From NCBI GenBank assembly GCA_017609385.1, contig JAFCEA010000005.1:1-47511 (forward strand): 47,511 bases of DNA, given 5' to 3'. The notes below the pieces were generated by a model. It saw only the letters and a list, made by a program, of their open reading frames with translations, was not told where the DNA came from and searched no databases. Below are positions 927 through 43,539 of this stretch, piece by piece (positions within the stretch are counted from its first letter, which is position 1; every line of letters begins with the position of its first letter). The stretch is from Candidatus Woesearchaeota archaeon. GTDB taxonomy: Archaea; Nanobdellota; Nanobdellia; Woesearchaeales; CG1-02-33-12. Position numbers and translations under genes: made by a program.

Positions 927-2771
927 ATGGCCAAAAAACAAAACAAAAAAAATAATGCTAAAAATATAAAATCAAAAGAAAATGACCAGTTCAAGGAGAT
1001 TGAGTCAAAGCTTCCAAAAGATGCCAAGAAAAAACTAAGGGCAATCAAGTCAAAGCTTGATAAATTTCAAAAAATAGTCTTAAAAAAGTTTGAACAATAC
1101 ATAATAGGCATTGCGCTCCTGCCCCCAAAAAAGCCAGAAAAAGATGAAAAACCTAGTGAGCAGATTAATATTCTTGTCTTGGTTGATGATTCTGACAGCA
1201 AGAGAATGTCTAAGGATGAACTAAAGACAAAACTTTCATCTATTATAGAAGAAATGGCAAAAGATATTGACAAAAATCTTGCACCACAAACAATTATTCT
1301 TTCTGAACTATGGCAGAGCTGTTATGACGGGAAATATGAGCTACTAGAGATGATAGCACTATCTGCTCCAGTTTATGATACAGGAATGCTGTCTGCTATC
1401 AAGATAGCTGAGATCCATAAGTCAATGGTCCTTAAAAAGTTTGAGAAATACATTGTAAGCTATGTTCTTGCAGGCTCTCTTGTTCAAGGCAAAGCAACAC
1501 CTGAATCAGACATTGATGTCTTTATTGTAGTGGATGATACAGACGTCAAAAAGATGACAAGAGCTGAGTTAAAAGATAAATTAAGGGCAATAATAATAAC
1601 AATGGGAATGGAAGCTGGAGAGGTTACAGGAATCAAAAACAAGCTGAATGTCCAGGTCTATATACTTACAGACTTCTGGGATAACATAAAAGAGGCCAAT
1701 CCAATAATATTCACCTTTTTGAGGGACGGAGTTCCATTCTATGACAGAGGAATATTCATGCCATGGAAGCAGCTATTGAAGATGGGCAAGATAAAACCAT
1801 CTGCAGAGGCGATTGATATGTATATGAACAGCGGAGAGCAGATGTTAAAGCATGTGAAGTTTAAGATAAGAGATTTAGGAATGGAAGATACATTCTGGGC
1901 CATCTTAACACCAAGCCAGGCAGCACTTATGCTTTATGGTGTTCCACCTCCAACTCCAAAGGAAACCCCTGAATTGATGAGGCAGCTGTTTGTAAAAAAA
2001 GAAAAAATGCTGGAGGAAAAGTATGTAAAGATACTTGAAAACAACATACAGGTCAGAAAGGATCTTGAGCATGGAAAAGAAAAGAAGCTTAGCGGCAAAG
2101 AAGTAGATGTATTATTAGAAAACGCTGAAAACTATCTGAAAAGAATAAAAAAATTATTCAGCCAGATAGAGAAGATAAAAGAAAAAGAGTCAATGCTCCA
2201 TGTTTATGACACTGTTGTTACAATAATAAGGGATATCCTACGGATTGAGGGAATAGAGAGTGCTAATGATTCAGAGATAGTTAATATATTTGAGAAAGAA
2301 ATAATAAGCAAAGGGAAAATACCTGCAAAGTTCCTAAGAATACTGCATGCTATAATGAAGGCAAAGAAAGATTATGATGAGAAAAAACTGACAAAGGTAG
2401 AGGTAGAGAAGGTTAAAAAGAACTCCCAGGAATTTATCAGATTTATGATTGAGCATATACAAAGAAAAAGGGGCATGGAGATTGAAAGGACAAAGGTAAG
2501 AGTAAAATATGGGGACAAATATGGAGAAGTCCTTTTGCTTGGAAAAAACGCTTACATTATACATGACATTGATCAGGAGGAAAAAAGAATTACTAAAGCA
2601 GAAATACTTCCAAATGGTGGCCTAGGAAAAATCACCAAGAGCTCTCTTGAAGAGCTTGAGAAAGAGCTCTCAAAGATAGAGATTCTATCCAAGGTCTTTA
2701 TAAAAGAGCCAATATTTGAGGACATGAAAAAAATCTTTGGTAAGAATGTAGAGATACTGATTAACTACTGA
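927..2771 (+). CDS. Protein with tandem nucleotidyltransferase-fold domains (first degenerate, second with GS..DxD) plus a helical C-terminal region
   Basis: Internal duplication: KFEQYIIGIALL...ILVLVDDSDSKRMSKDELKTKL versus KFEKYIVSYVLAGSLVQGKATPESDIDVFIVVDDTDVKKMTRAELKDKL. Only the second copy keeps the Pol-beta-type GS-x9-DxD signature. ATG at 927 follows aggtgg; the track start at 921 is GTG. Confidence 0.6.
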   Translation: MAKKQNKKNNAKNIKSKENDQFKEIESKLPKDAKKKLRAIKSKLDKFQKIVLKKFEQYIIGIALLPPKKPEKDEKPSEQINILVLVDDSDSKRMSKDELKTKLSSIIEEMAKDIDKNLAPQTIILSELWQSCYDGKYELLEMIALSAPVYDTGMLSAIKIAEIHKSMVLKKFEKYIVSYVLAGSLVQGKATPESDIDVFIVVDDTDVKKMTRAELKDKLRAIIITMGMEAGEVTGIKNKLNVQVYILTDFWDNIKEANPIIFTFLRDGVPFYDRGIFMPWKQLLKMGKIKPSAEAIDMYMNSGEQMLKHVKFKIRDLGMEDTFWAILTPSQAALMLYGVPPPTPKETPELMRQLFVKKEKMLEEKYVKILENNIQVRKDLEHGKEKKLSGKEVDVLLENAENYLKRIKKLFSQIEKIKEKESMLHVYDTVVTIIRDILRIEGIESANDSEIVNIFEKEIISKGKIPAKFLRILHAIMKAKKDYDEKKLTKVEVEKVKKNSQEFIRFMIEHIQRKRGMEIERTKVRVKYGDKYGEVLLLGKNAYIIHDIDQEEKRITKAEILPNGGLGKITKSSLEELEKELSKIEILSKVFIKEPIFEDMKKIFGKNVEILINY

Positions 2772-2865
2772 TTTAACCTTTTTTGATTATATTCTTTGTT
2801 ATATATTTTCTATTTTACTTAAGTTTATTAATCAGAAAGATATCTTATTATTATTAGGGGTTTAG

Positions 2866-3434: not shown

Positions 3435-3442
3435 TTTAAATA
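3435..3442 (+). promoter_or_regulatory. Putative archaeal TATA box (TTTAAATA) for tRNA-Leu
   Basis: Octamer TTTAAATA lies 29-36 nt upstream of the tRNA 5' end. The identical octamer occupies the same position upstream of tRNA-Val and tRNA-Pro. Confidence 0.45.
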
Positions 3443-3470: not shown

Positions 3471-3580
3471 GCGGGGGTAGCAAAGTCTGGTCAAATGCGC
3501 AGGACTTAAGACTAAATATAATTACAAGGCAGAAATCCTGTCTCTTAGTGAGTCCATGGGTTCAAATCCCATCCCCCGCA
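3471..3580 (+). tRNA. tRNA-Leu(UAA) with an anticodon-loop intron of about 24 nt
   Basis: Acceptor GCGGGGG/CCCCCGC plus A. Anticodon stem CAGGA (3500-3504)/TCCTG (3536-3540), loop CTTAAG..A with TAA at 3507-3509. Long variable arm TCTCTTAGTGAGTC. T arm ATGGG-TTCAAAT-CCCAT. Intron is about 3511-3534; I could not draw a clean BHB, so exact boundaries are uncertain. Confidence 0.88.
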
Positions 3581-3621
3581 TAAATAGTTCTGAAGAATAT
3601 GTAATTAATGCAATATTCTGA

Positions 3622-5250
3622 TTAGTAAGAATTTCTAGGGTGCCCCCTTTTATAACCCATATAAAGAGCAGAAAGTAAAACAAAAATAAAAAATATTCCA
3701 ATCGGGATCATAAGTGAACGTATGGAAAAAGTATATTTTCTTGATTTAATCCACTCTTTTAAACTAATATTTAGTTTTGCAGGAGGATTATCTGCCTCTT
3801 CTTTTGTTATATTTGTTTCATTTATTATTGGGGGGACTACTTCTGTTCTTCCAACAACTGTAACAATTTTTTCTTGGTTTGCTTCTAATATTTGATTATA
3901 CTCAGATTCATATATAATTCTTAAATTTATTGAATAATTTTTTTTACCCACAACATCTGGAGCTGTGAAATATATATCATCGATTTTTTTATATTTTAAT
4001 GGTTTTAAATTACCTATTTTTTCTGTTATTTTTATAAAATTGGGCAGGTCACTTTCTATTATTACTTCTATATTTTTAAATGAATGTATTGGGCTTGGAT
4101 TCTTTATCTTTACTGAAATATTTGATTTTTCAGAACTTAACACCTCTTTATTAACTTTAGAGTCTATAGATAATGTCTTTCCATAAATATTTAGGCTTAT
4201 TGATTTCTCAACTTCTTTCCTAATATTATTAATTACAAATGAGGCTTTTGGCTTTAATGTATGATTTCCTATGTATTTACTTTTTAATTTTATATTGAAT
4301 AGTTTAGTCTCTCCTTTAGCTAGTTTACCTTCCCAGCTTAATTCCTTGTAATCTTGTATTAGGTATTTTGGTGGTGTTGATATGTCTAGTTCATTAGGTA
4401 TTGTTATTTTAAATGAGGTTATGGTAATGCTATTGTTATTATTTATATTTGTTAAGTTAATGTTTAGATTAGCCTCTTGACCCAACTTTACTTCATTCTT
4501 ATCCAGTGTTAAAATCATATTCAGTTGATAATCAGGGATAGTTATTGTTGAGGTATCAGAATGACTTTCTACTATTTTAACTCCATTGTTATAGCTTATA
4601 GATGCCCGCGATTTAAAGGTAGTGTTCTGCAATGCCTTGATTTTATAAGAGCATCTTTTTTCCATACCTCCCCTTAGGCTACCATGCCATTTAACAGTTC
4701 TGTGTGTACTGTTAGCATATGCAACACAATCTGATATTTGTGTAATCGCAAATGAAGAAGGGATAGGGTCTGAATAAACAATGTTAGTAGCTTCTACATT
4801 TCCTGTGTTTTTTAGGGTTACCTCTATTTTTGTCTGTTCATTAATCAAGAACTCTGTAGTTCCAACTGTTCTTGTTAATTCAATTTCTGTGGTTTCTAAA
4901 AGAAACGAGTATATTTTAATAGATGCCTTATATATATCATCATCTAATGTTGTGTTATGATACCAAAACTCTGAGTTAGTAACACATAACTCATAGTTTT
5001 CCGTGGTTTCACATGAGTCATTCTTTACAATAACATATGAATTAGTTGGTAAAGTAATAATTACCCTGTCATGGGCAGAGCTTAAACTAAAACTAAATAT
5101 TTCATTACTTATATTAATTGTATTTATTTGATTAGAATAAATAGTTCCAGAGTAGATTTCCTTTTCATCTACAGCATATGTAGATGGAATTATAATTAAT
5201 AACATAAGTGCTATATATATAAAAACCTCTTTTTGCATATCATAATACAT
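3622..5250 (-). CDS. Cell-surface protein: signal peptide, repeated beta-sandwich-like (DUF11/CARDB-like) modules, C-terminal TM anchor
   Basis: N-terminal hydrophobic segment FIYIALMLLIIIPSTYA. Repeated segments such as IEVTLKNTGNVEATNIVYSDPIPSSF and ANLNINLTNINNNNSITITSFKITIP. C-terminal TM MIPIGIFFIFVLLSALYMGY followed by basic residues. Confidence 0.55.
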   Translation of the reverse strand: MYYDMQKEVFIYIALMLLIIIPSTYAVDEKEIYSGTIYSNQINTINISNEIFSFSLSSAHDRVIITLPTNSYVIVKNDSCETTENYELCVTNSEFWYHNTTLDDDIYKASIKIYSFLLETTEIELTRTVGTTEFLINEQTKIEVTLKNTGNVEATNIVYSDPIPSSFAITQISDCVAYANSTHRTVKWHGSLRGGMEKRCSYKIKALQNTTFKSRASISYNNGVKIVESHSDTSTITIPDYQLNMILTLDKNEVKLGQEANLNINLTNINNNNSITITSFKITIPNELDISTPPKYLIQDYKELSWEGKLAKGETKLFNIKLKSKYIGNHTLKPKASFVINNIRKEVEKSISLNIYGKTLSIDSKVNKEVLSSEKSNISVKIKNPSPIHSFKNIEVIIESDLPNFIKITEKIGNLKPLKYKKIDDIYFTAPDVVGKKNYSINLRIIYESEYNQILEANQEKIVTVVGRTEVVPPIINETNITKEEADNPPAKLNISLKEWIKSRKYTFSIRSLMIPIGIFFIFVLLSALYMGYKRGHPRNSY

Positions 5251-5444: not shown

Positions 5445-6557
5445 ATGATGAAAACAAAAACATTGAAAATTATTGTATTAATGTTTTTAATTAATACACT
5501 ATTTGTAACAGCATCAATAGACTCTAGCTATAAATGTAAGGAAAGAAATTGTATGGAAGGCACAGAAATAGATTTTACTGTAAACATATACAATAACATC
5601 AACAAAAGCATCAATGTAGGTGATGTATACATAAAAGATAGGGATTATGGTACTGTTCTTGGATTTGACATTAGTGAGGATGTAGTTTTAGGTCCAGATG
5701 AGGTTCATAGCTTTAACTTCACAAGTCTGGTTAAAGCTCCAACAAAGGGCTATACATTTTACTATGTTCCGTGTTTTAAGATGTCTTATGCTAATAAACC
5801 AGAAGAGGTTTTTAATATATGTGGTAAGACTGTGAAAAGTTTTACAGTTCTTCCATTGTCAAAGATTGAGTGCAAAGAGGATTCTGAGTGTGAAGAGGAT
5901 GAATACTGCAACACGTTCAGTATTTACAAATGCAGGAAACTGGAATGCAATCCTAATGAAACTGCAGTTAATCATTCATGTGTTTTATCAGAGCCAAAAA
6001 AAGTAGTTATCATTAACTGGAGAAATGTTATATTAACAGCAGGATTTATTGTTTTGGCTGTTATTTTATTGTTTTTGTTTATAGGAAGAAAACAAAAGTA
6101 TGGAAGTGAGGATTATGTGGATATGACTACTGAATTCACTGAAGAGAAAGAAACCACTAAAGAAGAGAAGTTAGATAAGGAGTATAAAAAGATTGAAGAA
6201 TCCTTTAGAGAATTAAAAGAAGATAAACCTAAAAAAGATGAAGAGAATAAAGAAATTAAGGAACTTACTCAAGAACCTAAACAAGAAAAAGCTGAAAAAG
6301 ATGAAGAAAAGGATCATAAAAAGGATGTTGGGAGGGATGAAGAAATTAAAAAAAAGAAAACTAAACCTAAAAAGAACAACAAAAAGAAATATAAGCGCGT
6401 AAAGCAAAATAAAACTTATGACGCAGTTCCAGACTATGTGGTAGATGAGCAAAAAGAGGAAACTAAAAAAACAGATCAGGAAATAGAAGACAAAGACATA
6501 GAAATTATGGATTACAGCGGTTATGAAGATGATGATGAAAGTAAAGATATATTATAA
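5445..6557 (+). CDS. Single-pass membrane protein: Cys-rich ectodomain and long Lys/Glu-rich cytoplasmic tail
   Basis: Signal/TM MMKTKTLKIIVLMFLINTLFVTA, Cys-rich region (CKEDSECEEDEYCNTFSIYKCRKLEC), TM ILTAGFIVLAVILLFLFIG, then a K/E/D low-complexity tail. No recognisable family. Confidence 0.45.
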   Translation: MMKTKTLKIIVLMFLINTLFVTASIDSSYKCKERNCMEGTEIDFTVNIYNNINKSINVGDVYIKDRDYGTVLGFDISEDVVLGPDEVHSFNFTSLVKAPTKGYTFYYVPCFKMSYANKPEEVFNICGKTVKSFTVLPLSKIECKEDSECEEDEYCNTFSIYKCRKLECNPNETAVNHSCVLSEPKKVVIINWRNVILTAGFIVLAVILLFLFIGRKQKYGSEDYVDMTTEFTEEKETTKEEKLDKEYKKIEESFRELKEDKPKKDEENKEIKELTQEPKQEKAEKDEEKDHKKDVGRDEEIKKKKTKPKKNNKKKYKRVKQNKTYDAVPDYVVDEQKEETKKTDQEIEDKDIEIMDYSGYEDDDESKDIL

Positions 6558-6576
6558 TTACATAAATTTTATTAAT

Positions 6577-6649
6577 GCCCCGGTGGCTTAGTGGCTATAG
6601 CGCCACCTTGGTAAGGTGGAGGTCGCGAGTTCAACTCTCGCTCGGGGCT
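6577..6649 (+). tRNA. tRNA-Thr(GGU), intron-less
   Basis: 73-nt cloverleaf. Acceptor GCCCCGG/TCGGGGC plus T. D arm GCTT-AGTGGCTA-TAGC. Anticodon stem CCACC/GGTGG with loop TTGGTAA. T arm GCGAG-TTCAACT-CTCGC. Confidence 0.9.
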
Positions 6650-6662
6650 TTTTTACACAACA

Positions 6663-6670
6663 TTTAAATA
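6663..6670 (+). promoter_or_regulatory. Putative archaeal TATA box (TTTAAATA) for tRNA-Val
   Basis: TTTAAATA lies 27-34 nt upstream of the tRNA-Val 5' end. Same octamer and spacing as at tRNA-Leu and tRNA-Pro. Confidence 0.45.
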
Positions 6671-6696
6671 TTAATTCTAATCTTATATTTTTAGTT

Positions 6697-6922
6697 GGGC
6701 CTGTGATCTAGTGGCTATGATGTCACCTTGACGATTTAAAAAAATCAAAATGGTGAATATCCCCGGTTCGAACAGCTTCTTGCTAAGCTGGCACGCAAAT
6801 GGTTACGCTCATTTGATACGCAAAGAGCGACATTCAATTGCTCTGCAATTGAAGTCCCTCACGCTCGCTAGCGCTCGCGAAAGTTAGAGCTCGCAAGTGC
6901 TTTGAAAGTCCGGGTGGGCCCA
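6697..6922 (+). tRNA. tRNA-Val(GAC) with two introns: 17 nt at 37/38 (6734-6750) and 136 nt at 59/60 in the T-loop (6773-6908)
   Basis: Removing both introns leaves a 73-nt cloverleaf. Acceptor GGGCCTG/TGGGCCC plus A. D arm ATCT-AGTGGCTA-TGAT. Anticodon stem TCACC/GGTGA with GAC at 6730-6732. T stem CCCGG (6762-6766)/CCGGG (6910-6914). Both introns are framed by 3-4-3 bulge-helix-bulge motifs (see findings). Confidence 0.85.
6796..6861 (+). repeat. 66-nt conserved intron module, copy 1 (inside the tRNA-Val T-loop intron)
   Basis: Identical at 65/66 positions to 43432-43497. Two predicted hairpins: cgctc/gagcg and ttcaattgc/gcaattgaa. Confidence 0.9.
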
Positions 6923-6925
6923 TGA

Positions 6926-6987
6926 CAGCTGCTTGCTCAGCTGGCACGCAGTCCAGCATAAAGCCGGACACGCTCGCTTTGCTCGCA
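6926..6987 (+). repeat. Partial paralogous copy of the tRNA-Val intron flanks, just 3' of the tRNA (GC-rich, non-coding)
   Basis: 6926-6950 cagctgcttgctcagctggcacgca versus intron 6773-6797 cagcttcttgctaagctggcacgca (23/25; the two differences are compensatory in a 6-bp hairpin). 6969-6987 cacgctcgctttgctcgca versus intron 6860-6880 cacgctcgctagcgctcgcga. Confidence 0.7.
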
Positions 6988-7032
6988 ACAAATGAAGAGG
7001 TAAATAACATCAGAAGAATAAAAGAGATTAAA

Positions 7033-8046
7033 ATGGAGATAGGTTTTTTTGAATTAAAACCTTGGGAAAAAGCCTACTTACAAAAGAAACTAAAGGGCTA
7101 TTCCTTAAAATTTTTTGAAGAACCTCTCAGCAACAATAATGTTTCTAAAGCAAAAAACTCTGATATAATCTCTGTTTTTATTTATTCAAAGATTAACAAA
7201 GATATCCTAAAAAAACTTCCGAAGCTCAAGATTATCACAACAAGGTCAACTGGCTTTGACCATATTGACCTAAAAGAGTGCAGTAAGAGGAAAATTATCA
7301 CCTGTAATATCCCTTATTACGGAGAAAACACAGTTGCAGAGCATACATTTGCCTTAATATTATCTTTATCAAGGAATATTCATAAATCATATGTAAGAAC
7401 CTTAAGGGATGATTTTTCTATTGAGGGTTTGACTGGTTTTGACCTGAAAGGAAAAACCATGGGCATTATCGGGGGAGGCCATATAGGACTGCATGTAGCA
7501 AAAATGGCTCGCGGTTTTGGAATGAATGTGCTTGTCTATGATATAAATAAGCAGAATTTCCTGGCAGAAGTAATTGGATTTAGTTATGCAAATCTTGACG
7601 AATTATTAAAGAAATCAGATATAATTTCATTGCATGTTCCATATAACAAGCACACTCACCACTTAATAAATAGGAACAATATAAAGAAGATAAAAAAAGG
7701 TGCAATCCTAATAAATACTTCTAGGGGAGGGGTGGTTGATACAAGTGCTTTACTGTATGCCCTAGAAAAGAAAATCCTAGGTGGAGCTGGTCTGGATGTA
7801 ATTGAGGGTGAAGAGCTAATAAAAGAGGAGCATGAGCTCCTTTATGAAACAGGAAATCCAGAGAAATGGAAAACCATTGTCAGGGATCACAAAATATTCC
7901 ATATGGATAATGTTGTTTTTACTCCGCATAATGCCTTCAATAGCAAAGAAGCATTAATCAGGATATTAGATACAACAATAGGGAATATAGAATCCTATTC
8001 TAATAAAAATCCTGTAAATGTTGTTAATTCACAAGAAAGGATCTAA
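7033..8046 (+). CDS. D-isomer-specific 2-hydroxyacid dehydrogenase (NAD-binding)
   Basis: Rossmann motif GIIGGGHIGLHVAKMARGFGMNVLVYD and the C-terminal FTPHNAF motif typical of the family. The track ORF starts at 6922, inside the tRNA-Val 3' end. The first plausible start is ATG 7033 (MEIGFFELKPW). Confidence 0.85.
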   Translation: MEIGFFELKPWEKAYLQKKLKGYSLKFFEEPLSNNNVSKAKNSDIISVFIYSKINKDILKKLPKLKIITTRSTGFDHIDLKECSKRKIITCNIPYYGENTVAEHTFALILSLSRNIHKSYVRTLRDDFSIEGLTGFDLKGKTMGIIGGGHIGLHVAKMARGFGMNVLVYDINKQNFLAEVIGFSYANLDELLKKSDIISLHVPYNKHTHHLINRNNIKKIKKGAILINTSRGGVVDTSALLYALEKKILGGAGLDVIEGEELIKEEHELLYETGNPEKWKTIVRDHKIFHMDNVVFTPHNAFNSKEALIRILDTTIGNIESYSNKNPVNVVNSQERI

Positions 8047-8105: not shown

Positions 8106-9164
8106 GTGAATAATATCAGAAAAATAAAAGAAGAATTTTCGAAATACTTTATCTTTTTATTTTTTATTATAGCTGCTTATATGGTTTTTTTGGTTGTCAA
8201 ACCATTTATAGTTGCAATATTAACTAGCATTATAATCTCATATATCTCCTACCCCTTATACAAATGGATTAATAAAAAAACCAAGAGAAAAAACCTTTCT
8301 GCTATTATAGTAACAATGCTTGTAATAATTTTAATAATCACCCCAATTTTATTTATCGTGAATTCGCTTACAAGAGAAGTAACAACTGTTTATACTGATT
8401 CAAAACAAAGGATCGCAGAGGGGAATATAATTGATACAGAACCTGGCTCTAATTTATGGAAATTAAACTCTTTCCTGGTTAATATAGCAGAGAAACCGCA
8501 AATTAGTTCTTCCCTCGACAATATCACAAACACTATAATAAGCTCATTATCAAATTTTATATTTACAATACCAAAAAGAATACTTAGTTTTTTTGTTATG
8601 ATATTTTTAATCTTTTTCATGTTAAGGGATGGGGAGTTAATGGTTAAAAAGATAAAATATCTTATACCATTAAAAAATCATTACCAAAATAAGATAGTAA
8701 AAAAATTTGGCAGTGTTACACGTGCTGTTATATATGGACACTTTATAACAGCATTAATCCAAGGCATGGTTGGTACATTAGGATTATATATATTTGGAAT
8801 TAAATCACCCCTTGTATGGGGGGGGATTATGATAGTTGCATGTATGATACCCTTTGTTGGCGCACCAATTGTATGGTTTCCCCTTGGAGTTTTTAAACTC
8901 ATTATTGGTCTGACATCTAGCAACAGTTCTGCAACCATTATGGGTATAGGTCTTCTTGCTTATGGCTTTATTATAGTCTCATCAATTGACAATTTAATAA
9001 AGCCTAAAATTATTGGTGATAAGGCAAGGATTCATCCTACAATCATACTGTTGGGGATATTGGGTGGATTAGCTATTTTTGGATTTATAGGAATTGTTGT
9101 AGGTCCCTTGATATTATCACTATTTTTGACATTTGCTGAAATCTATAAAACAGAGATTATCTAA
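8106..9164 (+). CDS. AI-2E family (PerM/UPF0118) membrane transporter
   Basis: Polytopic membrane protein with family-typical FMLRDGE and IPFVGAPIVWFP segments. GTG start directly after aaggagg. Confidence 0.78.
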   Translation: MNNIRKIKEEFSKYFIFLFFIIAAYMVFLVVKPFIVAILTSIIISYISYPLYKWINKKTKRKNLSAIIVTMLVIILIITPILFIVNSLTREVTTVYTDSKQRIAEGNIIDTEPGSNLWKLNSFLVNIAEKPQISSSLDNITNTIISSLSNFIFTIPKRILSFFVMIFLIFFMLRDGELMVKKIKYLIPLKNHYQNKIVKKFGSVTRAVIYGHFITALIQGMVGTLGLYIFGIKSPLVWGGIMIVACMIPFVGAPIVWFPLGVFKLIIGLTSSNSSATIMGIGLLAYGFIIVSSIDNLIKPKIIGDKARIHPTIILLGILGGLAIFGFIGIVVGPLILSLFLTFAEIYKTEII

Positions 9165-12817: not shown

Positions 12818-13081
12818 ATGAAAACCAAAAACCTTAAATACTATAGTGGATTACAGTGCACTATGGTAACCACAATACAAATAAGCAATAAACTGCAGGG
12901 GGAATTGAGTAAAAGAAAGCTTTTCAACAGGGAGACCTATGAAGAGGTTATATGGGACTTAATGGAGGACACAATGGAGCTTAATGAGCAGACTAAAAAA
13001 GAGATTGAAGAGGCCCGCGCAGAAATAAGAAATAACAAATACGTTAAACTTGATGAAGCCAGGAAAAGGCTTGGTATATAA
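12818..13081 (+). CDS. Putative antitoxin partner of RelE (start could instead be ATG 12863)
   Basis: Small acidic protein whose stop overlaps the toxin start (TAATG at 13079-13083). A/T-rich TATA-like stretch ataataaata lies about 26-35 nt upstream of 12818. Confidence 0.55.
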   Translation: MKTKNLKYYSGLQCTMVTTIQISNKLQGELSKRKLFNRETYEEVIWDLMEDTMELNEQTKKEIEEARAEIRNNKYVKLDEARKRLGI

Positions 13082-13335
13082 TGTATGAGATAATTATTTC
13101 TGAAAGAGCTTTCAAACAGATAGGCAGGCTTGAAAAGCCAATGCAGAAAAGGATAATTAAGGCCCTAGAAAGAATAAGGTTCAGGCCTGAGGCTTATGTA
13201 ACAAAATTAGTTGGTGATCCTGGATACAGGCTAAGGGTAGGTGACTACAGGATTATAGTTGACATTAATAAGAGCAAACTTATTATTTTTGTGTTAAAGG
13301 TCGGCCACAGAAAAAACATATACAAAAATTCATGA
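13081..13335 (+). CDS. relE: Type II toxin, RelE/StbE (ParE superfamily) mRNA interferase
   Basis: 84 aa. ...PMQKRIIKALERIRFRPEAYVTKLVGDPGYRLRVGDYRIIVDINKSKLIIFVLKVGHRKNIY is a classic RelE/StbE pattern. Confidence 0.85.
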   Translation: MYEIIISERAFKQIGRLEKPMQKRIIKALERIRFRPEAYVTKLVGDPGYRLRVGDYRIIVDINKSKLIIFVLKVGHRKNIYKNS

Positions 13336-18367: not shown

Positions 18368-18697
18368 TTAGCTGAATTTCTTTATTATATGTTTTAAGAT
18401 GATTATCTGTGTTTTATCTTTGCTAGTTGTTTTCAAAAGCTCTTTTGCTAGCTTTTCTTCCTTAAAAACATCTTTAATCCAATTACTGAAATCATTTCTC
18501 ATTTCATTAACATGATGTTTAAATATGTCATCAGTCATTTTATCAAGCTGTTTGGATAAATCCAACACATTTTTTAAAATTGTTCCATCTTGAACAAAAA
18601 AATAATGCTCTGGATTAGCATCTCTTAATATATCTCTCTTCTTCATTGATTTTTTCTTAACCCCCCCTTTCTTTACAACTTTTCTTTTTGTTTTCAT
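18368..18697 (-). CDS. Small conserved-motif protein, paralog B (polybasic N-terminus, FKHHV...RNDFSNW motif)
   Basis: N-terminus MKTKRKVVKKGGVKKKSMKKRD, then the same motif set as paralog A. Its ATG overlaps the GH57 stop (ATGA at 18694-18697). Confidence 0.6.
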   Translation of the reverse strand: MKTKRKVVKKGGVKKKSMKKRDILRDANPEHYFFVQDGTILKNVLDLSKQLDKMTDDIFKHHVNEMRNDFSNWIKDVFKEEKLAKELLKTTSKDKTQIIILKHIIKKFS

Positions 18698-19961
18698 ACT
18701 ACCACCTCTTTTTTTAAAGTATTATGCTCTTTTAGCCTGAAGTTTATATCATTTAATATATTCATAAAGGTTATAAATGCATCATAAGGATTGTCATAAG
18801 GATTAAAATATTTATGCACATCACCATCATTGAACCACTTTGTGCACATGTAATAAAAATGGTCGCTTGTCTGAAGATTTCTCCAGTCATTAATAAGTTT
18901 TTTATCATTTGATTTTTTTATTGCTTCTTCTATAAGATATATCTCATTTATTGCTGATTTTTGCATGTCATTCCCATCCCATGCACTTGTATCTCTCTCA
19001 ATATCTGCCCATGAAACAGGGCTGTGAATATCTAGTTCTGCAACAGGATTATATGTTTTTACTGCCTCACTTGGAGTTTTGAAATCATTGTCAGGGTGCT
19101 TCAATAGCTCCTGAGGCAAGTATCTCAAAAAATTAAATATCCCTGTATCTGCCCACTGGTGCTCACCAAATGTCTCATAATCCATAAAAAGATTTACTAG
19201 ATTGCCATTTCCATTAACAGCATTAATCCAACTAGCATATTTATCAACTGTCAGCGGCCATTCCTTCCAGCTTCTGTCTGAAAACCTGAATGCAACATCA
19301 TCAGATAACTTGTAGTTTTTAAGCAAAAGCTTTATCCTTGATGTTGTTTTTGGCCTGTAAATAAAGTTGGGTGATCTCCAACCAAGTATATGATCAGCAC
19401 CTTCTGCCAGTATTCCCTTATAACCCATTGATTCAACAAAATTTGCAAGCTCATTATTATAGACAAGCTCTGTATTCCTGAAAATAGATGGATTTTGCTT
19501 AAACAAGCTTCTTATCTTTTTGTTATGCAAAATAACCTGCTCCTTAAATTCCTGTTTTGAATGCAGGAATGCAAGTGAATGATAGTATGTTTCATCAAGT
19601 ATTTCAACCTTGCCAGTATCAACTAGAATGCAAGTGAATGATAGTATGTTTCATCAAGTATTTCAACCTTGCCAGTATCAACTAGATCCTTAAATGATTG
19701 TAAAACATCTGGCATAAGCTCCTCAAATTGTTCCAAGATAACACCTGAAAAAGAATAGCTTATCTTAAATTCTTCATGCTTGTTAAGCAAATCAAGCATT
19801 AGCTCATTGGTTGGGAGATAACATTTTTCTGCAACCTTTTTTAGTATACCCAGATTCTTCTTCTTATTAGTATAACTATGATTCTTCCCAATCTCAAAAA
19901 CATTATATTCTCTCAGCCTATAAGGCTGGTGAACCTGGAAATAAAAACAAATTGATACCAT
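18694..19961 (-). pseudogene. Glycoside hydrolase family 57 (alpha-amylase/alpha-glucanotransferase-like), frame broken by a 59-bp tandem duplication
   Basis: The N-terminal fragment (19623-19961) starts MVSICFYFQVHQPYRLREY, the GH57 signature, and ends ...ETYYHSLAF*. The C-terminal fragment (18694-19530) continues the family. Deleting one 59-nt copy gives ...YYHSLAFLHSKQEFKEQVILHNKKIRSLF..., a 1209-nt open frame. Confidence 0.8.
19568..19685. repeat. Perfect 2 x 59-bp tandem direct duplication
   Basis: aatgcaagtgaatgatagtatgtttcatcaagtatttcaaccttgccagtatcaactag occurs at 19568-19626 and again at 19627-19685. Confidence 0.95.
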
Positions 19962-43316: not shown

Positions 43317-43324
43317 TTTAAATA
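43317..43324 (+). promoter_or_regulatory. Putative archaeal TATA box (TTTAAATA) for tRNA-Pro
   Basis: TTTAAATA lies 29-36 nt upstream of the tRNA-Pro 5' end. Confidence 0.45.
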
Positions 43325-43352: not shown

Positions 43353-43539
43353 GGGGCTGTAGGGTAGCTTGGTTCATCCTTTCTGGTTTGGGTTGTTAAA
43401 ACACAAGAAACCAGACGACCCCGGTTCAAACCAAATGGTTACGCTCATTTGATACGCAAAGAGCGACATTCAATTGCTTTGCAATTGAAGTCCCTCAAGT
43501 TCATTACGCTCACCAGTTGTGAAAGTCCGGGCAGCCCCA
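43353..43539 (+). tRNA. tRNA-Pro(UGG) with two introns: 17 nt at 37/38 (43393-43409) and 95 nt at 59/60 in the T-loop (43431-43525)
   Basis: The spliced product is a 75-nt cloverleaf. Acceptor GGGGCTG/CAGCCCC plus A. Anticodon stem TCTGG/CCAGA with TGG at 43389-43391 and G37. T stem CCCGG (43420-43424)/CCGGG (43527-43531). Both introns are framed by 3-4-3 BHB motifs. Confidence 0.85.
43432..43497 (+). repeat. 66-nt conserved intron module, copy 2 (inside the tRNA-Pro T-loop intron)
   Basis: 65/66 identical to 6796-6861. The single difference is t43479 versus c6843, in a hairpin loop. Confidence 0.9.

What the first reader, a model, noticed from the sequence alone, without database searches (positions are those of the whole stretch)
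6773..6908. 136-nt intron at T-loop position 59/60 of tRNA-Val, framed by a canonical bulge-helix-bulge
The T stem is cccgg 6762-6766 / ccggg 6910-6914. Immediately inside it, ttcg (6767-6770) pairs with tgaa (6903-6906), giving three Watson-Crick pairs and one G-U. This 4-bp helix is flanked by two 3-nt bulges, aac (6771-6773) and agt (6907-6909). Cleavage after the second bulge nucleotide gives exactly the junction needed for a 7-nt T-loop TTCGAAT. The first intron (6734-6750) has an equally clean BHB: ttga 6728-6731 pairs with tcaa 6745-6748, with bulges cga and aat. Non-canonical 59/60 introns are known in some archaea but are usually short. Here the intron is nearly twice the length of the mature tRNA and much more GC-rich than its surroundings.
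Basis: partly seen in the sequence, partly recalled or inferred. Interest (0 to 1): 0.72.

Follow-up and report, generated by a model that had tools for sequence, protein, structure and literature searches.

The report
Long T-loop intron in archaeal tRNA-Val
A tRNA-Val gene of an ultra-small (DPANN, Woesearchaeota-like) archaeon is interrupted in its T-loop by a real 136-base intron, most of which is a two-hairpin sequence module that has spread among tRNA genes, hides them from standard tRNA finders, and offers a way to study how archaeal tRNA introns move.

Summary
Window 6697-6922 is a tRNA-Val(GAC) gene with a 17-nt anticodon-loop intron and a 136-nt insert between positions 59 and 60. Removing both in silico gives a 73-nt tRNA that ARAGORN calls Val(gac). 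The "canonical BHB" claim is only half right. The T stem, the 4-bp helix UUCG/UGAA and the 3' bulge AGU are canonical, but the 5' bulge is not closed by a stable inner helix.

A pattern scan found the same 59/60 junction in at least 120 metagenome contigs, with introns of 8-233 nt. T-loop base 57 covaries with its intron partner. Nine Val(GAC) orthologues with near-identical exons carry nine different introns.

- A second gene of this kind in the window, tRNA-Pro(UGG) at 43353-43539, shares 66 nt (one mismatch) with the Val intron.
- The GC-rich 3' trailer of tRNA-Val (6923-6999) is another copy of the same sequence.
- This ~75-90-nt two-hairpin module is tRNA-associated only, with 38 copies in 1.34 Mb. 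It lies in T-loop introns, one 37/38 intron, trailers, inverted copies, and one nested insertion with a matching empty site.

Best reading: a spliced BHB-type intron carrying a mobile or recombining module. No RNA data were available.

The parts
6663..6670 (+). TTTAAATA box, a TATA-like archaeal promoter element, 27-34 nt upstream of tRNA-Val
   Evidence: Read. The same octamer sits at the same distance upstream of tRNA-Leu (3435-3442) and tRNA-Pro (43317-43324). Promoter function is inferred.
6697..6922 (+). tRNA-Val(GAC) gene with two introns. The 3' CCA end is not encoded.
   Evidence: The in-silico spliced 73-mer is called tRNA-Val(gac) by ARAGORN. Nine orthologues have near-identical exons.
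6697..6733 (+). Exon 1: acceptor 5' strand, D arm, anticodon stem 5' strand, loop through G37
6734..6750 (+). Intron 1: 17 nt at the canonical position 37/38, with a canonical BHB
   Evidence: Helix ttga 6728-6731 / tcaa 6745-6748, bulges cga and aat, inner helix UUU/AAA. ARAGORN reports i(38,17) once the T-loop insert is removed.
6751..6772 (+). Exon 2: nt 38 to 59, including T stem 5' strand 6762-6766 and T-loop nt 54-59 (TTCGAA)
6773..6908 (+). Intron 2: 136 nt at position 59/60 in the T-loop. This is the finding.
6773..6797 (+). Hairpin A (CAGCTT-CTTGCT-AAGCTG) followed by GCACGCA. It is an extra 5' sub-module, 92% identical to 6925-6950 in the trailer.
   Evidence: Direct repeat D2. Compensatory U-A to G-C change between the two copies.
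6796..6887 (+). Core module: P1 hairpin CAAATG..CATTTG (6796-6815), linker ATACGCA, long irregular P2 hairpin (about 6820-6864), and GCTCGC repeats (6863-6869, 6873-6879; a third at 6889-6896)
   Evidence: Covariance model R1 scores 86.4 bits, E 8e-18. P1 and P2 are supported by covariation.
6903..6908 (+). Intron 3' end TGAAAG. TGAA pairs with T54-G57 to form the central helix. AG plus U60 forms the 3' bulge that holds the 3' splice site.
   Evidence: YGAAAG was the pattern searched for in the scan. In the looser scan, 96 of 106 bulges read AGT, but most of those loci came from the scan, so that count is not independent evidence of conservation.
6909..6922 (+). Exon 3: U60, T stem 3' strand, acceptor 3' strand, discriminator A73
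6923..6999 (+). GC-rich 3' trailer, a third copy of the module lying outside the tRNA. It has hairpin CAGCTG-CTTGCT-CAGCTG (6926-6943), GCACGCA, P2-like hairpin 6951-6969, GCTCGCT-TT-GCTCGCAA (6972-6988), and ends ..AAATGAAGAG.
   Evidence: R1 scores 53.4 bits, E 2e-10 at 6926-6995. GC is 56-59%. Homologous trailers occur in L001, L002, L052, L092, L108, L149 and L166. The copy is inverted in L146.
43353..43539 (+). tRNA-Pro(UGG) gene with the same architecture. Exons are 43353-43392, 43410-43430 and 43526-43539. The 17-nt intron is 43393-43409 (37/38). The 95-nt T-loop intron is 43431-43525 (59/60).
   Evidence: The spliced 75-mer is called tRNA-Pro(tgg) by ARAGORN. The central helix here is TTCA/TGAA.
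43432..43522 (+). Module copy inside the tRNA-Pro T-loop intron. 66 nt match 6796-6861 with one mismatch.
   Evidence: Pairwise alignment. R1 scores 82.6 bits.

Best explanation
The 136-nt insert is a genuine archaeal protein-spliced (BHB-type) tRNA intron at T-loop position 59/60 of a functional tRNA-Val(GAC) gene. The organism is a Woesearchaeota/Nanoarchaeota (DPANN) archaeon.

How it works, shown by sequence and comparison:
- The tRNA's own T stem serves as the outer helix.
- The near-universal T-loop bases T54-T55-C56-R57 pair with the intron's YGAA to form the 4-bp central helix.
- AG plus U60 form the 3-nt 3' bulge.
- The 5' cut falls two bases after the helix, between A59 and the first intron base.
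- Only the last six intron bases (YGAAAG) are needed to dock on any tRNA, so the intron works as a portable cassette. The same intron family sits at 59/60 of Val, Pro, Ile, Glu and Ala tRNAs.

Inferred steps:
- The splicing endonuclease EndA cuts both sites. It must be a form that tolerates relaxed motifs, because the 5' bulge is poorly closed.
- RtcB joins the exons, restoring TTCGAAU, and circularises the intron.

The intron body is not needed for docking. It is one copy of a ~75-90-nt GC-rich two-hairpin module (P1, linker ACGCA, long irregular P2, GCTCGC repeats) that behaves as a DNA-level mobile or recombining element tied to tRNA genes. It is exchanged between the introns of different tRNAs, and copies also lie in 3' trailers (as at 6923-6999), in either orientation and nested inside each other. 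I take the module to be selfish or neutral cargo. Its compact fold also keeps the two distant splice sites together.
For: Splicing and gene function:
- In-silico splicing gives canonical tRNAs for Val and Pro.
- A TTTAAATA box lies at the same distance upstream of the Val, Pro and Leu tRNA genes.
- The intron contains no T5 run, no ORF and no C/D boxes.
- At least 120 contigs share the junction. Of 125 matches, 116 have CCCGGTTCRAN upstream, with introns of 8-233 nt.
- Base 57 covaries with its partner: 53 A-T, 35 G-C, 14 G-T, 4 A-C.
- Nine Val(GAC) orthologues have identical exons except for 66-67 TG versus CA. Both versions pair with G7 and T6. They carry nine different introns of 88-136 nt.
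- The same intron family occurs in Ile, Glu, Ala and Val(UAC/CAC) genes.

The module:
- The Val and Pro introns share 66 nt with one mismatch.
- The P1/P2 fold forms standard pairs in 95.7% of cells, against 85.6% in shuffles and 18-54% with slid partners. The covariation score is 0.287 against 0.130, exceeded by 0 of 500 shuffles.
- Model R1 finds exactly 3 copies in the window and 35 in 200 loci. These are 25 in T-loop introns, 9 in direct trailers, 3 inverted or extragenic, and 1 in a 37/38 intron. All lie next to tRNA genes.
- L108 holds two otherwise identical tandem segments, one with and one without a complete 75-nt module.

Literature:
- DPANN EndAs with an L3 loop are associated with more disrupted tRNA genes, and unidentified disrupted tRNA genes are expected in DPANN (PMC5829648).
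- Near-identical introns in different tRNAs are taken as intron transposition in Thermoproteales (PMC4090602).
- Excised archaeal tRNA introns are circularised (PMC12558985).
Against: - There is no RNA evidence of any kind. Splicing, circularisation and expression are all inferred.
- No EndA or RtcB gene lies in the window. The enzyme type of this organism was not determined.
- The 5' half of the motif is non-canonical here. The MFE fold pairs A58 and A59, and the two-bulge form makes up about 4% of the ensemble.
- The metagenome pattern required the intron's 3' end, so the survey cannot show intron-less alleles or measure how common the intron is.
- Compensatory changes in P1 and P2, including those in trailer copies, and conserved single-stranded motifs could mean the module RNA has a function. 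That would argue against 'selfish cargo'.
- The insertion mechanism is unknown. No target-site duplication or transposase was seen.
Confidence: 0.8

Rival explanations
1. The module is a functional small non-coding RNA that piggybacks on tRNA transcription and processing. EndA plus ligase would release it from introns as a stable circle, and RNase Z cleavage at the tRNA 3' end would release it from trailers. The intron would then be an expression vehicle, like the box C/D RNA in the euryarchaeal tRNA-Trp intron.
For: - The module is GC-rich (49-59%) in a 33% GC genome.
- It has a conserved two-hairpin fold with compensatory changes, also in trailer copies.
- It has conserved unpaired motifs (ACGCA, GCTCGCT-N2-3-GCTCGCAA).
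- Both locations lie inside a tRNA transcription unit, with no T5 terminator before the trailer.
- Archaeal tRNA introns are known to persist as circles, and some are C/D RNAs (PMC12558985).
Against: - It has no C/D or H/ACA boxes and no Rfam match even at relaxed thresholds.
- Orthologous tRNAs in relatives carry short introns without the module. The Val trailer copy is absent from L181, reduced to a remnant in L107, and inverted in L146. L186 (tRNA-Pro) also has an inverted copy.
- Module composition is reshuffled among near-identical genomes. That fits weak constraint better than a fixed function.
Confidence: 0.2
2. The modules are footprints of site-specific integration into the T-arm/3' end of tRNA genes, the classical attachment site of archaeal integrative elements. 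In this view the T-loop introns and trailers are domesticated remnants of such events, not a self-standing miniature element. This concerns origin, so it is compatible with the intron being spliced today.
For: - Complete tRNAs are followed by an inverted module and then a second partial copy of the tRNA 3' end plus its T-run. This is seen in L186 for Pro, and in L052 and L108 for Thr. A similar arrangement occurs in L178, and L106 has a partial 3'-end copy 584 nt downstream.
- L002 has a 790-bp insertion, apparently encoding a HIT-like protein by eye and not tested, immediately after tRNA-Thr.
- Sugahara et al. [quoted passage not shown]
Against: - No integrase or recombinase gene was seen next to any copy.
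- The window's own trailer has no duplicated tRNA fragment.
- The 75-nt insertion in L108 sits inside a module hairpin loop, not at a tRNA end.
- Most copies (25 of 38) are clean introns.
Confidence: 0.25
3. The locus is a dead tRNA-Val gene disrupted by an insertion and is not spliced.
For: - Standard finders do not call the gene.
- The 5' half of the BHB is imperfect.
- The insert is a repeated element.
Against: - The exons are intact and identical across nine orthologues while the insert changes. Acceptor-stem changes are structure-preserving.
- The helix between T-loop and intron covaries.
- The gene keeps a promoter box like the neighbouring tRNA genes.
- The same design occurs in at least 5 tRNA types and at least 120 contigs.
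- No other Val gene lies in the window.
Confidence: 0.03
4. The insert is retained in the mature tRNA as an expansion at the elbow. Nucleotides 59 and 60 are flipped out of the T-loop fold, so an insertion there might be tolerated structurally.
For: The position coincides with the one gap in the T-loop motif where other RNAs accommodate insertions. This is established structural knowledge, not tested here.
Against: The conserved, covarying pairing of T54-R57 with the intron's YGAA would destroy the T-loop fold. It makes sense only as a transient endonuclease substrate. Insert lengths of 8-233 nt, with free replacement among orthologues, do not fit a structural domain.
Confidence: 0.02

Closest known systems
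Non-canonical BHB/hBH tRNA introns at position 59/60 and other sites in Crenarchaeota, especially Thermoproteales (Marck & Grosjean 2003; Sugahara et al. 2008; recalled from memory, summarised in PMC4033280 and PMC8450103)
   Same: Protein-spliced introns lying outside the anticodon loop. Several introns can occur per tRNA. The motifs are relaxed and need a broad-specificity endonuclease. The genes are missed by standard tRNA finders.
   Different: The lineage is DPANN (Woesearchaeota/Nanoarchaeota), not TACK. The introns reach 88-233 nt, although how typical that is was not checked against published length ranges. Most of the length is a conserved two-hairpin module. One site (59/60) dominates the sampled tRNA types, but that sampling was biased towards this site.
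Intron 'transposition' families of Thermoproteales (Fujishima et al. 2010, Mol Biol Evol; described in PMC4090602)
   Same: Near-identical intron sequences occur in tRNA genes of different identity within one genome, at both canonical and non-canonical positions. Here these are Val/Pro in the window, Ile/Glu/Ala/Val in L118, and positions 37/38 plus 59/60 in L190. DNA-level spread is inferred and the mechanism is unknown.
   Different: Here the repeated unit also occurs outside introns. It is found in 3' trailers, in inverted copies, and nested inside another copy with a matching empty site. It therefore behaves as an element in its own right and not only as an intron.
tRNA-Trp intron carrying a box C/D guide RNA in Euryarchaeota (Haloferax, Pyrococcus, Halobacterium; PMC12558985)
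   Same: A long (~100 nt), structured tRNA intron flanked by a BHB, excised and circularised, whose body is a distinct RNA module.
   Different: That intron lies at 37/38 and has C, D, C' and D' boxes with known methylation targets. The module here has no such boxes and no Rfam match.
[quoted passage not shown] 2012, PMC3293823)
   Same: A single tRNA locus varies at population level in its intron content. tRNA fragments are duplicated next to the gene.
   Different: In that case a 1.8-kb element with a recombinase gene was present. Here only 75-130-nt non-coding modules were seen, with no recombinase.
Split and permuted tRNA genes of Nanoarchaeum equitans and others
   Same: The phylum-level group is the same in GTDB terms. 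Processing depends on a BHB. tRNA genes are discontinuous.
   Different: Here all exons are colinear in one transcription unit, so splicing is in cis. The intron contains no internal promoter or terminator signals.

Membership tests
Archaeal protein-spliced (BHB-type) tRNA intron | Removing the insert at the predicted sites restores a canonical tRNA | tested here: met
   ARAGORN calls the 73-nt product tRNA-Val(gac) and the 75-nt product tRNA-Pro(tgg).
Archaeal protein-spliced (BHB-type) tRNA intron | A 4-bp central helix spans the two splice sites and is maintained by covariation | tested here: met
   UUCG/UGAA in the window. Across 106 distinct loci, base 57 and its partner read A-T 53, G-C 35, G-T 14, A-C 4.
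Archaeal protein-spliced (BHB-type) tRNA intron | A 3-nt 3' bulge lies between the central helix and an outer helix, with the cut after its second base | tested here: met
   The AGU bulge is flanked by the T stem. In the looser scan, 96 of 106 bulges read AGT, but most of those loci were selected by a pattern that fixed AGT, so the count is not independent. The cut position is inferred from the BHB rule.
Archaeal protein-spliced (BHB-type) tRNA intron | A 3-nt 5' bulge is closed by an inner helix (the strict hBHBh' form) | tested here: inconclusive
   The window's Val intron has only A-U and G.U before a mismatch. The MFE fold pairs A58 and A59, and the two-bulge form costs 1.2-2 kcal/mol. Of 103 family members, 55 have 0 bp in the canonical register, while a few (L110, L118-Ile, L156) are strictly canonical. 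The motif is therefore a relaxed hBH/BHL type.
Archaeal protein-spliced (BHB-type) tRNA intron | The genome encodes a splicing endonuclease able to cut relaxed motifs, plus an RtcB-type ligase | not testable with these tools
   Neither gene is in the window (Pfam). A tblastn with a recalled EndA sequence gave only a spurious hit. The literature reports alpha4 EndA with an L3 loop in DPANN, in a survey that included a Woesearchaeota genome (PMC5829648).
Archaeal protein-spliced (BHB-type) tRNA intron | The spliced product and the excised (circular) intron are detected as RNA | not testable with these tools
   No transcriptome data were available.
Box C/D sRNA-containing tRNA intron | C box RUGAUGA and D box CUGA, with C' and D' boxes and a K-turn | tested here: not met
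   Neither motif occurs in the Val intron, the Pro intron or the trailer. The only snoRNA-type Rfam matches have E>0.7.
Group I self-splicing intron in a tRNA gene | A catalytic core (P3-P9) recognisable by the Rfam model, with size usually above 200 nt | tested here: not met
   No match at E<=10 on the window locus or at E<=1 on five related loci, including the 233-nt intron.
MITE (miniature inverted-repeat transposable element) | Terminal inverted repeats, a target-site duplication, and dispersed genomic copies | tested here: not met
   The filled/empty pair in L108 shows no target-site duplication. The end complementarity within introns is the BHB inner helix. All 38 copies lie next to tRNA genes and are not dispersed.
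Transposed intron families (Thermoproteales type) | Near-identical introns in tRNA genes of different identity within one genome | tested here: met
   The Val and Pro introns in the window match at 65 of 66 nt. L118 carries the module in its Val, Ile and Glu genes, with a related intron in Ala. L190 has it at both 37/38 and 59/60.

The most novel reading that the evidence does not exclude
The ~75-90-nt two-hairpin module is a new kind of miniature mobile element specialised for tRNA genes. It would spread by cassette exchange or insertion using the universally conserved T-loop sequence (GGTTCRAA) and the complementary YGAAAG as portable flanks. It would be tolerated because the host endonuclease removes it as an intron, and it would leave extragenic, inverted and nested copies. 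It would then be the long-sought agent of archaeal tRNA intron gain, possibly with an RNA-level life as a stable circle.
Probability: 0.3. Interest if true: 0.8.

Novelty: new variant of a known kind. Interest (0 to 1): 0.62.

Why it matters
There are three reasons.

1. **Annotation.** ARAGORN and the Rfam tRNA model see only 2 of the 4 tRNA genes in this window. They miss essentially all of the 100 or more T-loop-intron genes collected here. Kaneta et al. 2018 pointed out that incomplete tRNA sets in DPANN genomes imply undiscovered disrupted genes. This intron class is a concrete explanation, and the YGAAAG/T-stem rule is an easy way to find such genes.

2. **Mechanism of intron gain.** How archaeal tRNA introns are gained and move is still stated to be unknown (PMC4090602). 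This lineage offers natural experiments:
   - nine different introns in one otherwise identical gene;
   - near-identical cargo in different tRNAs;
   - a filled site with a matching empty site;
   - inverted and nested copies;
   - duplicated tRNA 3' ends.

3. **Enzymology.** Most of these introns have a relaxed 5' half. The DPANN endonuclease must therefore cut bulge-helix-loop substrates with up to 233 nt between the two sites. This can be tested in vitro.

Tried and rejected
- **Rfam.** Searched at gathering and relaxed thresholds on the Val locus, the Pro locus and five related loci. Only ordinary tRNAs and noise were found, so the module is not a described RNA family.
- **Motifs and coding.** The intron has no box C/D or H/ACA motifs, no T5 terminators and no ORFs.
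- **Viral-contig scans.** Scans for exon 2 and for the 3' junction gave 0 hits.
- **Strict BHB across the family.** Rejected. The inner helix in the canonical register is absent in more than half. The fraction with at least 3 bp is 0.14, against 0.074 for shuffled partners, which is barely above chance.
- **EndA search.** A tblastn with a recalled M. jannaschii EndA sequence was run over all fetched DNA. The one hit (L002/L113) is a low-complexity membrane protein and was discarded.
- **Other copies of GCTCGCT-N-GCTCGC.** In the window and the first 80 loci this motif occurs only at tRNA-Val loci.
- **Trailer excision.** I looked for a BHB between leader and trailer that would let EndA excise the trailer copy. 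By eye I found no convincing pairing between the AT-rich leader and the GC-rich trailer (no computed test).
- **Module origin.** I considered that the module derives from decayed T-arm or junction duplicates (for example GAGTTCGCAA|CCAAT versus CGGTTCGAA|CCAAAT in L002, and TTGAAGTCC versus TTGAAAGTCC). The similarity is too short to test, so this is left as speculation.
- **Pseudoknot or alternative closing helix.** Pairing between the P1 loop (CUUGC) and the tail (GCAAG) is plausible in A-type copies. It is not alignable across types and was not established.
- **Partial tRNA 3'-end duplicates downstream of T-loop-intron genes.** A systematic search found only a few (L106, L178, plus L186 and L052-Thr by eye), so this pattern is not general.
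- **Intron-less Val/Pro genes.** ARAGORN's Val/Pro calls in the archaeal loci are mis-parses of T-loop-intron genes. No presence/absence information was obtained.
Full report
**1. The observation**

Reading 6500-7200 confirms every coordinate in the finding.
- 6697-6922 (+) has a 7-bp acceptor stem, GGGCCUG/UGGGCCC (two G.U pairs), and a D arm like that of the neighbouring tRNA-Thr.
- The anticodon stem is UCACC/GGUGA and the anticodon is GAC.
- The T stem is CCCGG 6762-6766 / CCGGG 6910-6914.
- Two inserts interrupt the gene, at 6734-6750 (17 nt, after G37) and 6773-6908 (136 nt, after A59).
- Joining the three exons gives a 73-nt sequence that ARAGORN calls tRNA-Val(gac) with a TTCGAAT T-loop. 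With only the T-loop insert removed, ARAGORN reports the 17-nt intron at position 38.
- The unspliced gene is invisible to ARAGORN and to the Rfam tRNA model, even at E<=10.
- The insert is 49% GC against 33% for the window.

**2. How canonical is the BHB?**

The 37/38 intron is a textbook hBHBh' motif.

At 59/60 the 3' half is also textbook. It consists of the T stem, the 3-nt bulge A6907-G6908-U6909, and the 4-bp helix U6767-U-C-G6770 / U6903-G-A-A6906.

The 5' half is not.
- After the putative bulge A6771-A6772-C6773, the canonical register gives A-U, G.U and then a mismatch.
- Continuing in that register gives an imperfect helix, AGCUUCUUGC/GCAAGUGCUU (8 of 10 positions pair, read). It competes with the local hairpin CAGCUU-CUUGCU-AAGCUG.
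- RNAfold's MFE extends the central helix to UUCGAA/UUUGAA.
- Forcing both bulges open costs 1.2 kcal/mol (MFE) or about 2 kcal/mol (ensemble), which is about 4% occupancy.

The motif is therefore a relaxed hBH/BHL type. In the literature that type needs an endonuclease with broadened specificity (PMC5829648).

**3. Organism**

The neighbouring genes are archaeal. They include aRF1 with an intein, aIF5A, SRP54, ThrRS, L37Ae and an AMP-phosphorylase-like gene.

The mechanical ORF 6922-8046 really starts at ATG 7033 and encodes a D-2-hydroxyacid dehydrogenase. Its closest relatives in GTDB genomes (94-95% amino-acid identity) are MAGs labelled Nanoarchaeota and Candidatus Woesearchaeota.

**4. 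Relatives keep the site but not the insert**

Three close relatives (L001, L002, L052) have tRNA-Val upstream of the same dehydrogenase gene. Where exons 1 and 2 are on the contig (L002, L052) they are identical to the window's, and L001, cut within the intron, shows a near-identical exon 3. All three are interrupted at the same 59/60 position, but the intron content differs.

I spent the single metagenome scan on the intron 3' end plus exon 3 (YGAAAGTCCGGGYRGSCCCA).
- Of 125 matches in all held DNA, 116 have CCCGGTTCRAN upstream. Intron lengths run from 8 to 233 nt, with a median near 44.
- ARAGORN types the in-silico T-loop-spliced genes mainly as Pro(UGG), often just upstream of an L37Ae gene, and as Val(GAC/UAC/CAC).
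- A looser scan also finds the same design in tRNA-Ile(UAU), Glu(UUC), Ala(UGC) and others. In contig L118, four of five clustered tRNA genes have it.

The pattern left base Y free, so the pairing of T-loop base 57 with Y is an unbiased test. The counts are A-T 53, G-C 35, G-T 14 and A-C 4 (Fisher p = 2e-12; the loci are not independent). In the scan the 3' bulge reads AGU in 96 of 106, but most of those loci came from the scan, whose pattern fixed AGT, so that count does not show conservation. By contrast, the inner helix is absent in the canonical register in 55 of 103 loci.

Nine Val(GAC) orthologues have identical exons except for 66-67 UG versus CA. Both versions pair with G7 and U6. They carry nine different T-loop introns of 136, 122, 120, 119, 107, 94, 90, 88 and 88 nt. 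This is the signature of a functional gene with a freely replaceable, spliced insert. It is not the signature of a pseudogene.

**5. A second gene and a third copy in the window**

A GC-island scan led to 43353-43539, a tRNA-Pro(UGG) gene.
- It has a 17-nt canonical intron (43393-43409) and a 95-nt intron at 59/60 (43431-43525).
- The spliced 75-mer is called tRNA-Pro(tgg).
- Its central helix is UUCA/UGAA, a compensated variant of the Val helix.
- Its intron shares 66 nt with the Val intron (6796-6861) with one mismatch.

The GC-rich tract also does not stop at the tRNA-Val 3' end. Positions 6923-6999 repeat the intron's first 26 nt at 92% identity. The two changes are compensatory within a hairpin. 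The tract then continues with a second hairpin and GCTCGCT-TT-GCTCGCAA.

**6. The module**

Aligning 20 intron and trailer copies gives a common plan:
- P1, a 5-6-bp hairpin in several sequence versions that all preserve pairing;
- a linker ACGCA;
- P2, a long irregular hairpin with a conserved C.C or C.A mismatch and a bulged A;
- GCTCGC-type repeats.

For P1 plus the alignable part of P2, 95.7% of cells form standard pairs. The figure is 85.6% in column shuffles and 18-54% with slid partners. The covariation score is 0.287 against 0.130, exceeded by 0 of 500 shuffles (RNAalifold agrees). The structure was derived from these same sequences and the copies are related, so this shows a maintained fold and not independent events.

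A covariance model built from the alignment gives these results.
- It finds exactly three copies in the window: 6796-6887, 43432-43522 and 6926-6995. The next hit has E>2.
- It finds 35 more in the 200 fetched loci.
- By context (my classification), the 38 copies are 25 in T-loop introns, 9 in direct-orientation 3' trailers of tRNA-Val, 3 inverted or extragenic (L146, L186, L108), and 1 in the canonical 37/38 intron of a tRNA-Pro whose 59/60 intron holds another copy (L190).
- No copy lies away from a tRNA gene. None occurs in the other 77 genome loci, which include many other Woesearchaeota. The module is therefore clade-restricted, while T-loop introns as such are broader.

**7. Evidence for DNA-level mobility**
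- (a) Near-identical cargo sits in different tRNAs of one genome.
- (b) Module order is mosaic among orthologues (A-B-C, B-C, A-C, B5'-A-C and so on).
- (c) In L108, two tandem segments are identical except that one contains a complete 75-nt module, inserted in a hairpin loop after GGTCGAAG. This is a filled site with a matching empty site, and it has no target-site duplication.
- (d) Inverted copies lie downstream of tRNA genes, in L146 for Val and L186 for Pro.
- (e) Some complete tRNAs are followed by an inverted module and then a partial duplicate of the tRNA 3' end with its T-run. This is seen in L186, and for tRNA-Thr in L052 and L108. It resembles integration-site scars.
- (f) Orthologous tRNA-Ile genes carry either a 20-nt hairpin intron or a 98-nt module intron between the same flanks. 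This looks like whole-cassette replacement.

**8. Mechanism proposed**

Shown:
- The intron docks through only six of its own bases. YGAA pairs with the nearly universal T54-T55-C56-R57, and AG plus U60 forms the bulge.
- The T stem of any tRNA supplies the outer helix.
- This explains why one cassette fits Val, Pro, Ile, Glu and Ala.

Inferred:
- The shared flanks GGTTCRAA and YGAAAGTCC could support cassette exchange by recombination or gene conversion.
- An EndA with relaxed specificity cuts at 59/i1 and iN/60. RtcB then ligates the exons and circularises the intron. Circular tRNA introns are general in archaea (PMC12558985).
- Archaeal tRNA promoters are external. TTTAAATA lies about 28-36 nt upstream of the Leu, Val and Pro genes. 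An insertion in the T-loop therefore costs nothing for transcription.
- The module's compact fold may serve only to bring the two sites together.
- The trailer copy (6923-6999) is most simply an ectopic copy of the same element, lying within the tRNA transcription unit. Whether it does anything is open.

**9. Comparison with what is known**

Non-canonical BHB introns, multi-intron tRNAs and near-identical introns in different tRNAs ('intron transposition') are established for Thermoproteales (PMC4090602, PMC4033280, PMC8450103). For DPANN, Kaneta et al. 2018 report EndAs with an L3 loop associated with more disrupted genes. They also state that incomplete tRNA sets point to unidentified disrupted genes. 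In the library I could search, that was the only paper pairing 'disrupted tRNA' with DPANN, and I found none describing a T-loop intron class there.

tRNAscan-SE 2.0's BHB models were trained on Crenarchaeota/Euryarchaeota and on Thaumarchaeota. I could not run it.

What appears new is the following:
- the lineage;
- the predominance of one site (59/60) in the sampled genes, although that sampling was biased;
- the intron size, up to 233 nt;
- a discrete structured module that also lives outside introns.

I file it as a new variant of a known kind.

**10. Limits**
- There is no RNA evidence.
- The endonuclease of this organism is unidentified.
- The survey was biased towards intron-containing alleles.
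- The metagenome contigs have no taxonomy.
- The copies are not independent.
- The module's function and its mechanism of movement are both unresolved.

Noticed in passing
window 43353-43539: A second tRNA gene, Pro(UGG), has both a 17-nt 37/38 intron and a 95-nt 59/60 intron. ARAGORN and Rfam both miss it. It lies directly upstream of an L37Ae gene (ATG at about 43564), and this synteny recurs in dozens of metagenome contigs.
   Followed up: yes
window 3471-3580: tRNA-Leu(UAA), class II, has an intron at the canonical position only: 27 nt by the Rfam alignment, 24 nt by ARAGORN. Rfam finds it, but ARAGORN's default run does not. So 3 of the window's 4 tRNA genes contain introns.
   Followed up: partly
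window 7004-7026 and 8110-8132: The 23-nt motif ATAAYATCAGAARAATAAAAGAR is repeated just upstream of two consecutive genes, the dehydrogenase and an AI-2E-family transporter. None is expected by chance. It is also conserved behind the tRNA-Val trailers of relatives, whatever gene follows. It may be a promoter or 5'-UTR element.
   Followed up: partly
window 6922-7032: The mechanical ORF 6922-8046 begins at the tRNA discriminator base and reads through the GC-rich trailer. The real dehydrogenase start is ATG 7033. Gene callers could mis-annotate the trailer as coding sequence.
   Followed up: yes
window 40627-43245 (-): The peptide chain release factor aRF1 is interrupted by an intein with LAGLIDADG and HTH domains. 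This is another selfish insertion in a translation gene, right next to tRNA-Pro.
   Followed up: no
window 18694-19530 and 19623-19961 (-): A glycoside hydrolase family 57 gene is split into two adjacent ORFs that cover the N- and C-terminal parts of the domain. This could be a frameshift, a pseudogene or an assembly error. It lies inside a glycogen-metabolism cluster.
   Followed up: no
window 12818-13335 (+): A ParE-family toxin ORF (13081-13335) directly follows an 87-aa ORF with no Pfam match. This is probably a toxin-antitoxin pair.
   Followed up: no
L108 7960-8250: Two tandem copies of the tRNA-Thr 3' end are each followed by an inverted hairpin module. The second copy carries a complete 75-nt module inserted in a hairpin loop. 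This gives a filled site with a matching empty site, and no target-site duplication.
   Followed up: yes
L186 4930-5050; L052 2373-2490; L178 (about 87 nt downstream of tRNA-Pro); L106 (584 nt downstream): Complete tRNA genes are followed by a partial direct repeat of the tRNA 3' end and its T-run. In L186 and L052 a short insert holding an inverted module lies between the gene and the repeat; L178 looks similar. In L106 the repeat lies 584 nt downstream and the sequence in between was not examined. These resemble integration-site (att) scars.
   Followed up: partly
L190 1790-2027: One tRNA-Pro carries homologous module copies in both its 37/38 intron (about 69 nt) and its 59/60 intron (94 nt).
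   Followed up: partly
L100 about 3568-3760 and L141 about 2600-2800 (-): Here the sequence upstream of a short 12-nt T-loop intron contains a second copy of the T-arm 5' half (CCCGGTTCGAA). This could be a duplicated pseudo-exon or a more complex split arrangement. It was not resolved.
   Followed up: no
L144 (- strand), tRNA-Val(GAC) at about 4390: This Val(GAC) gene appears to carry a third insertion in the D-loop region, in addition to its 37/38 and 59/60 introns.
   Followed up: no
L002 2846-3633: A 790-bp insertion lies between tRNA-Thr and the tRNA-Val promoter, relative to the window. By eye it carries a HIT-family-like ORF on the minus strand, which I did not test. The tRNA-Thr 3' flank looks like an insertion hot spot.
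   Followed up: no
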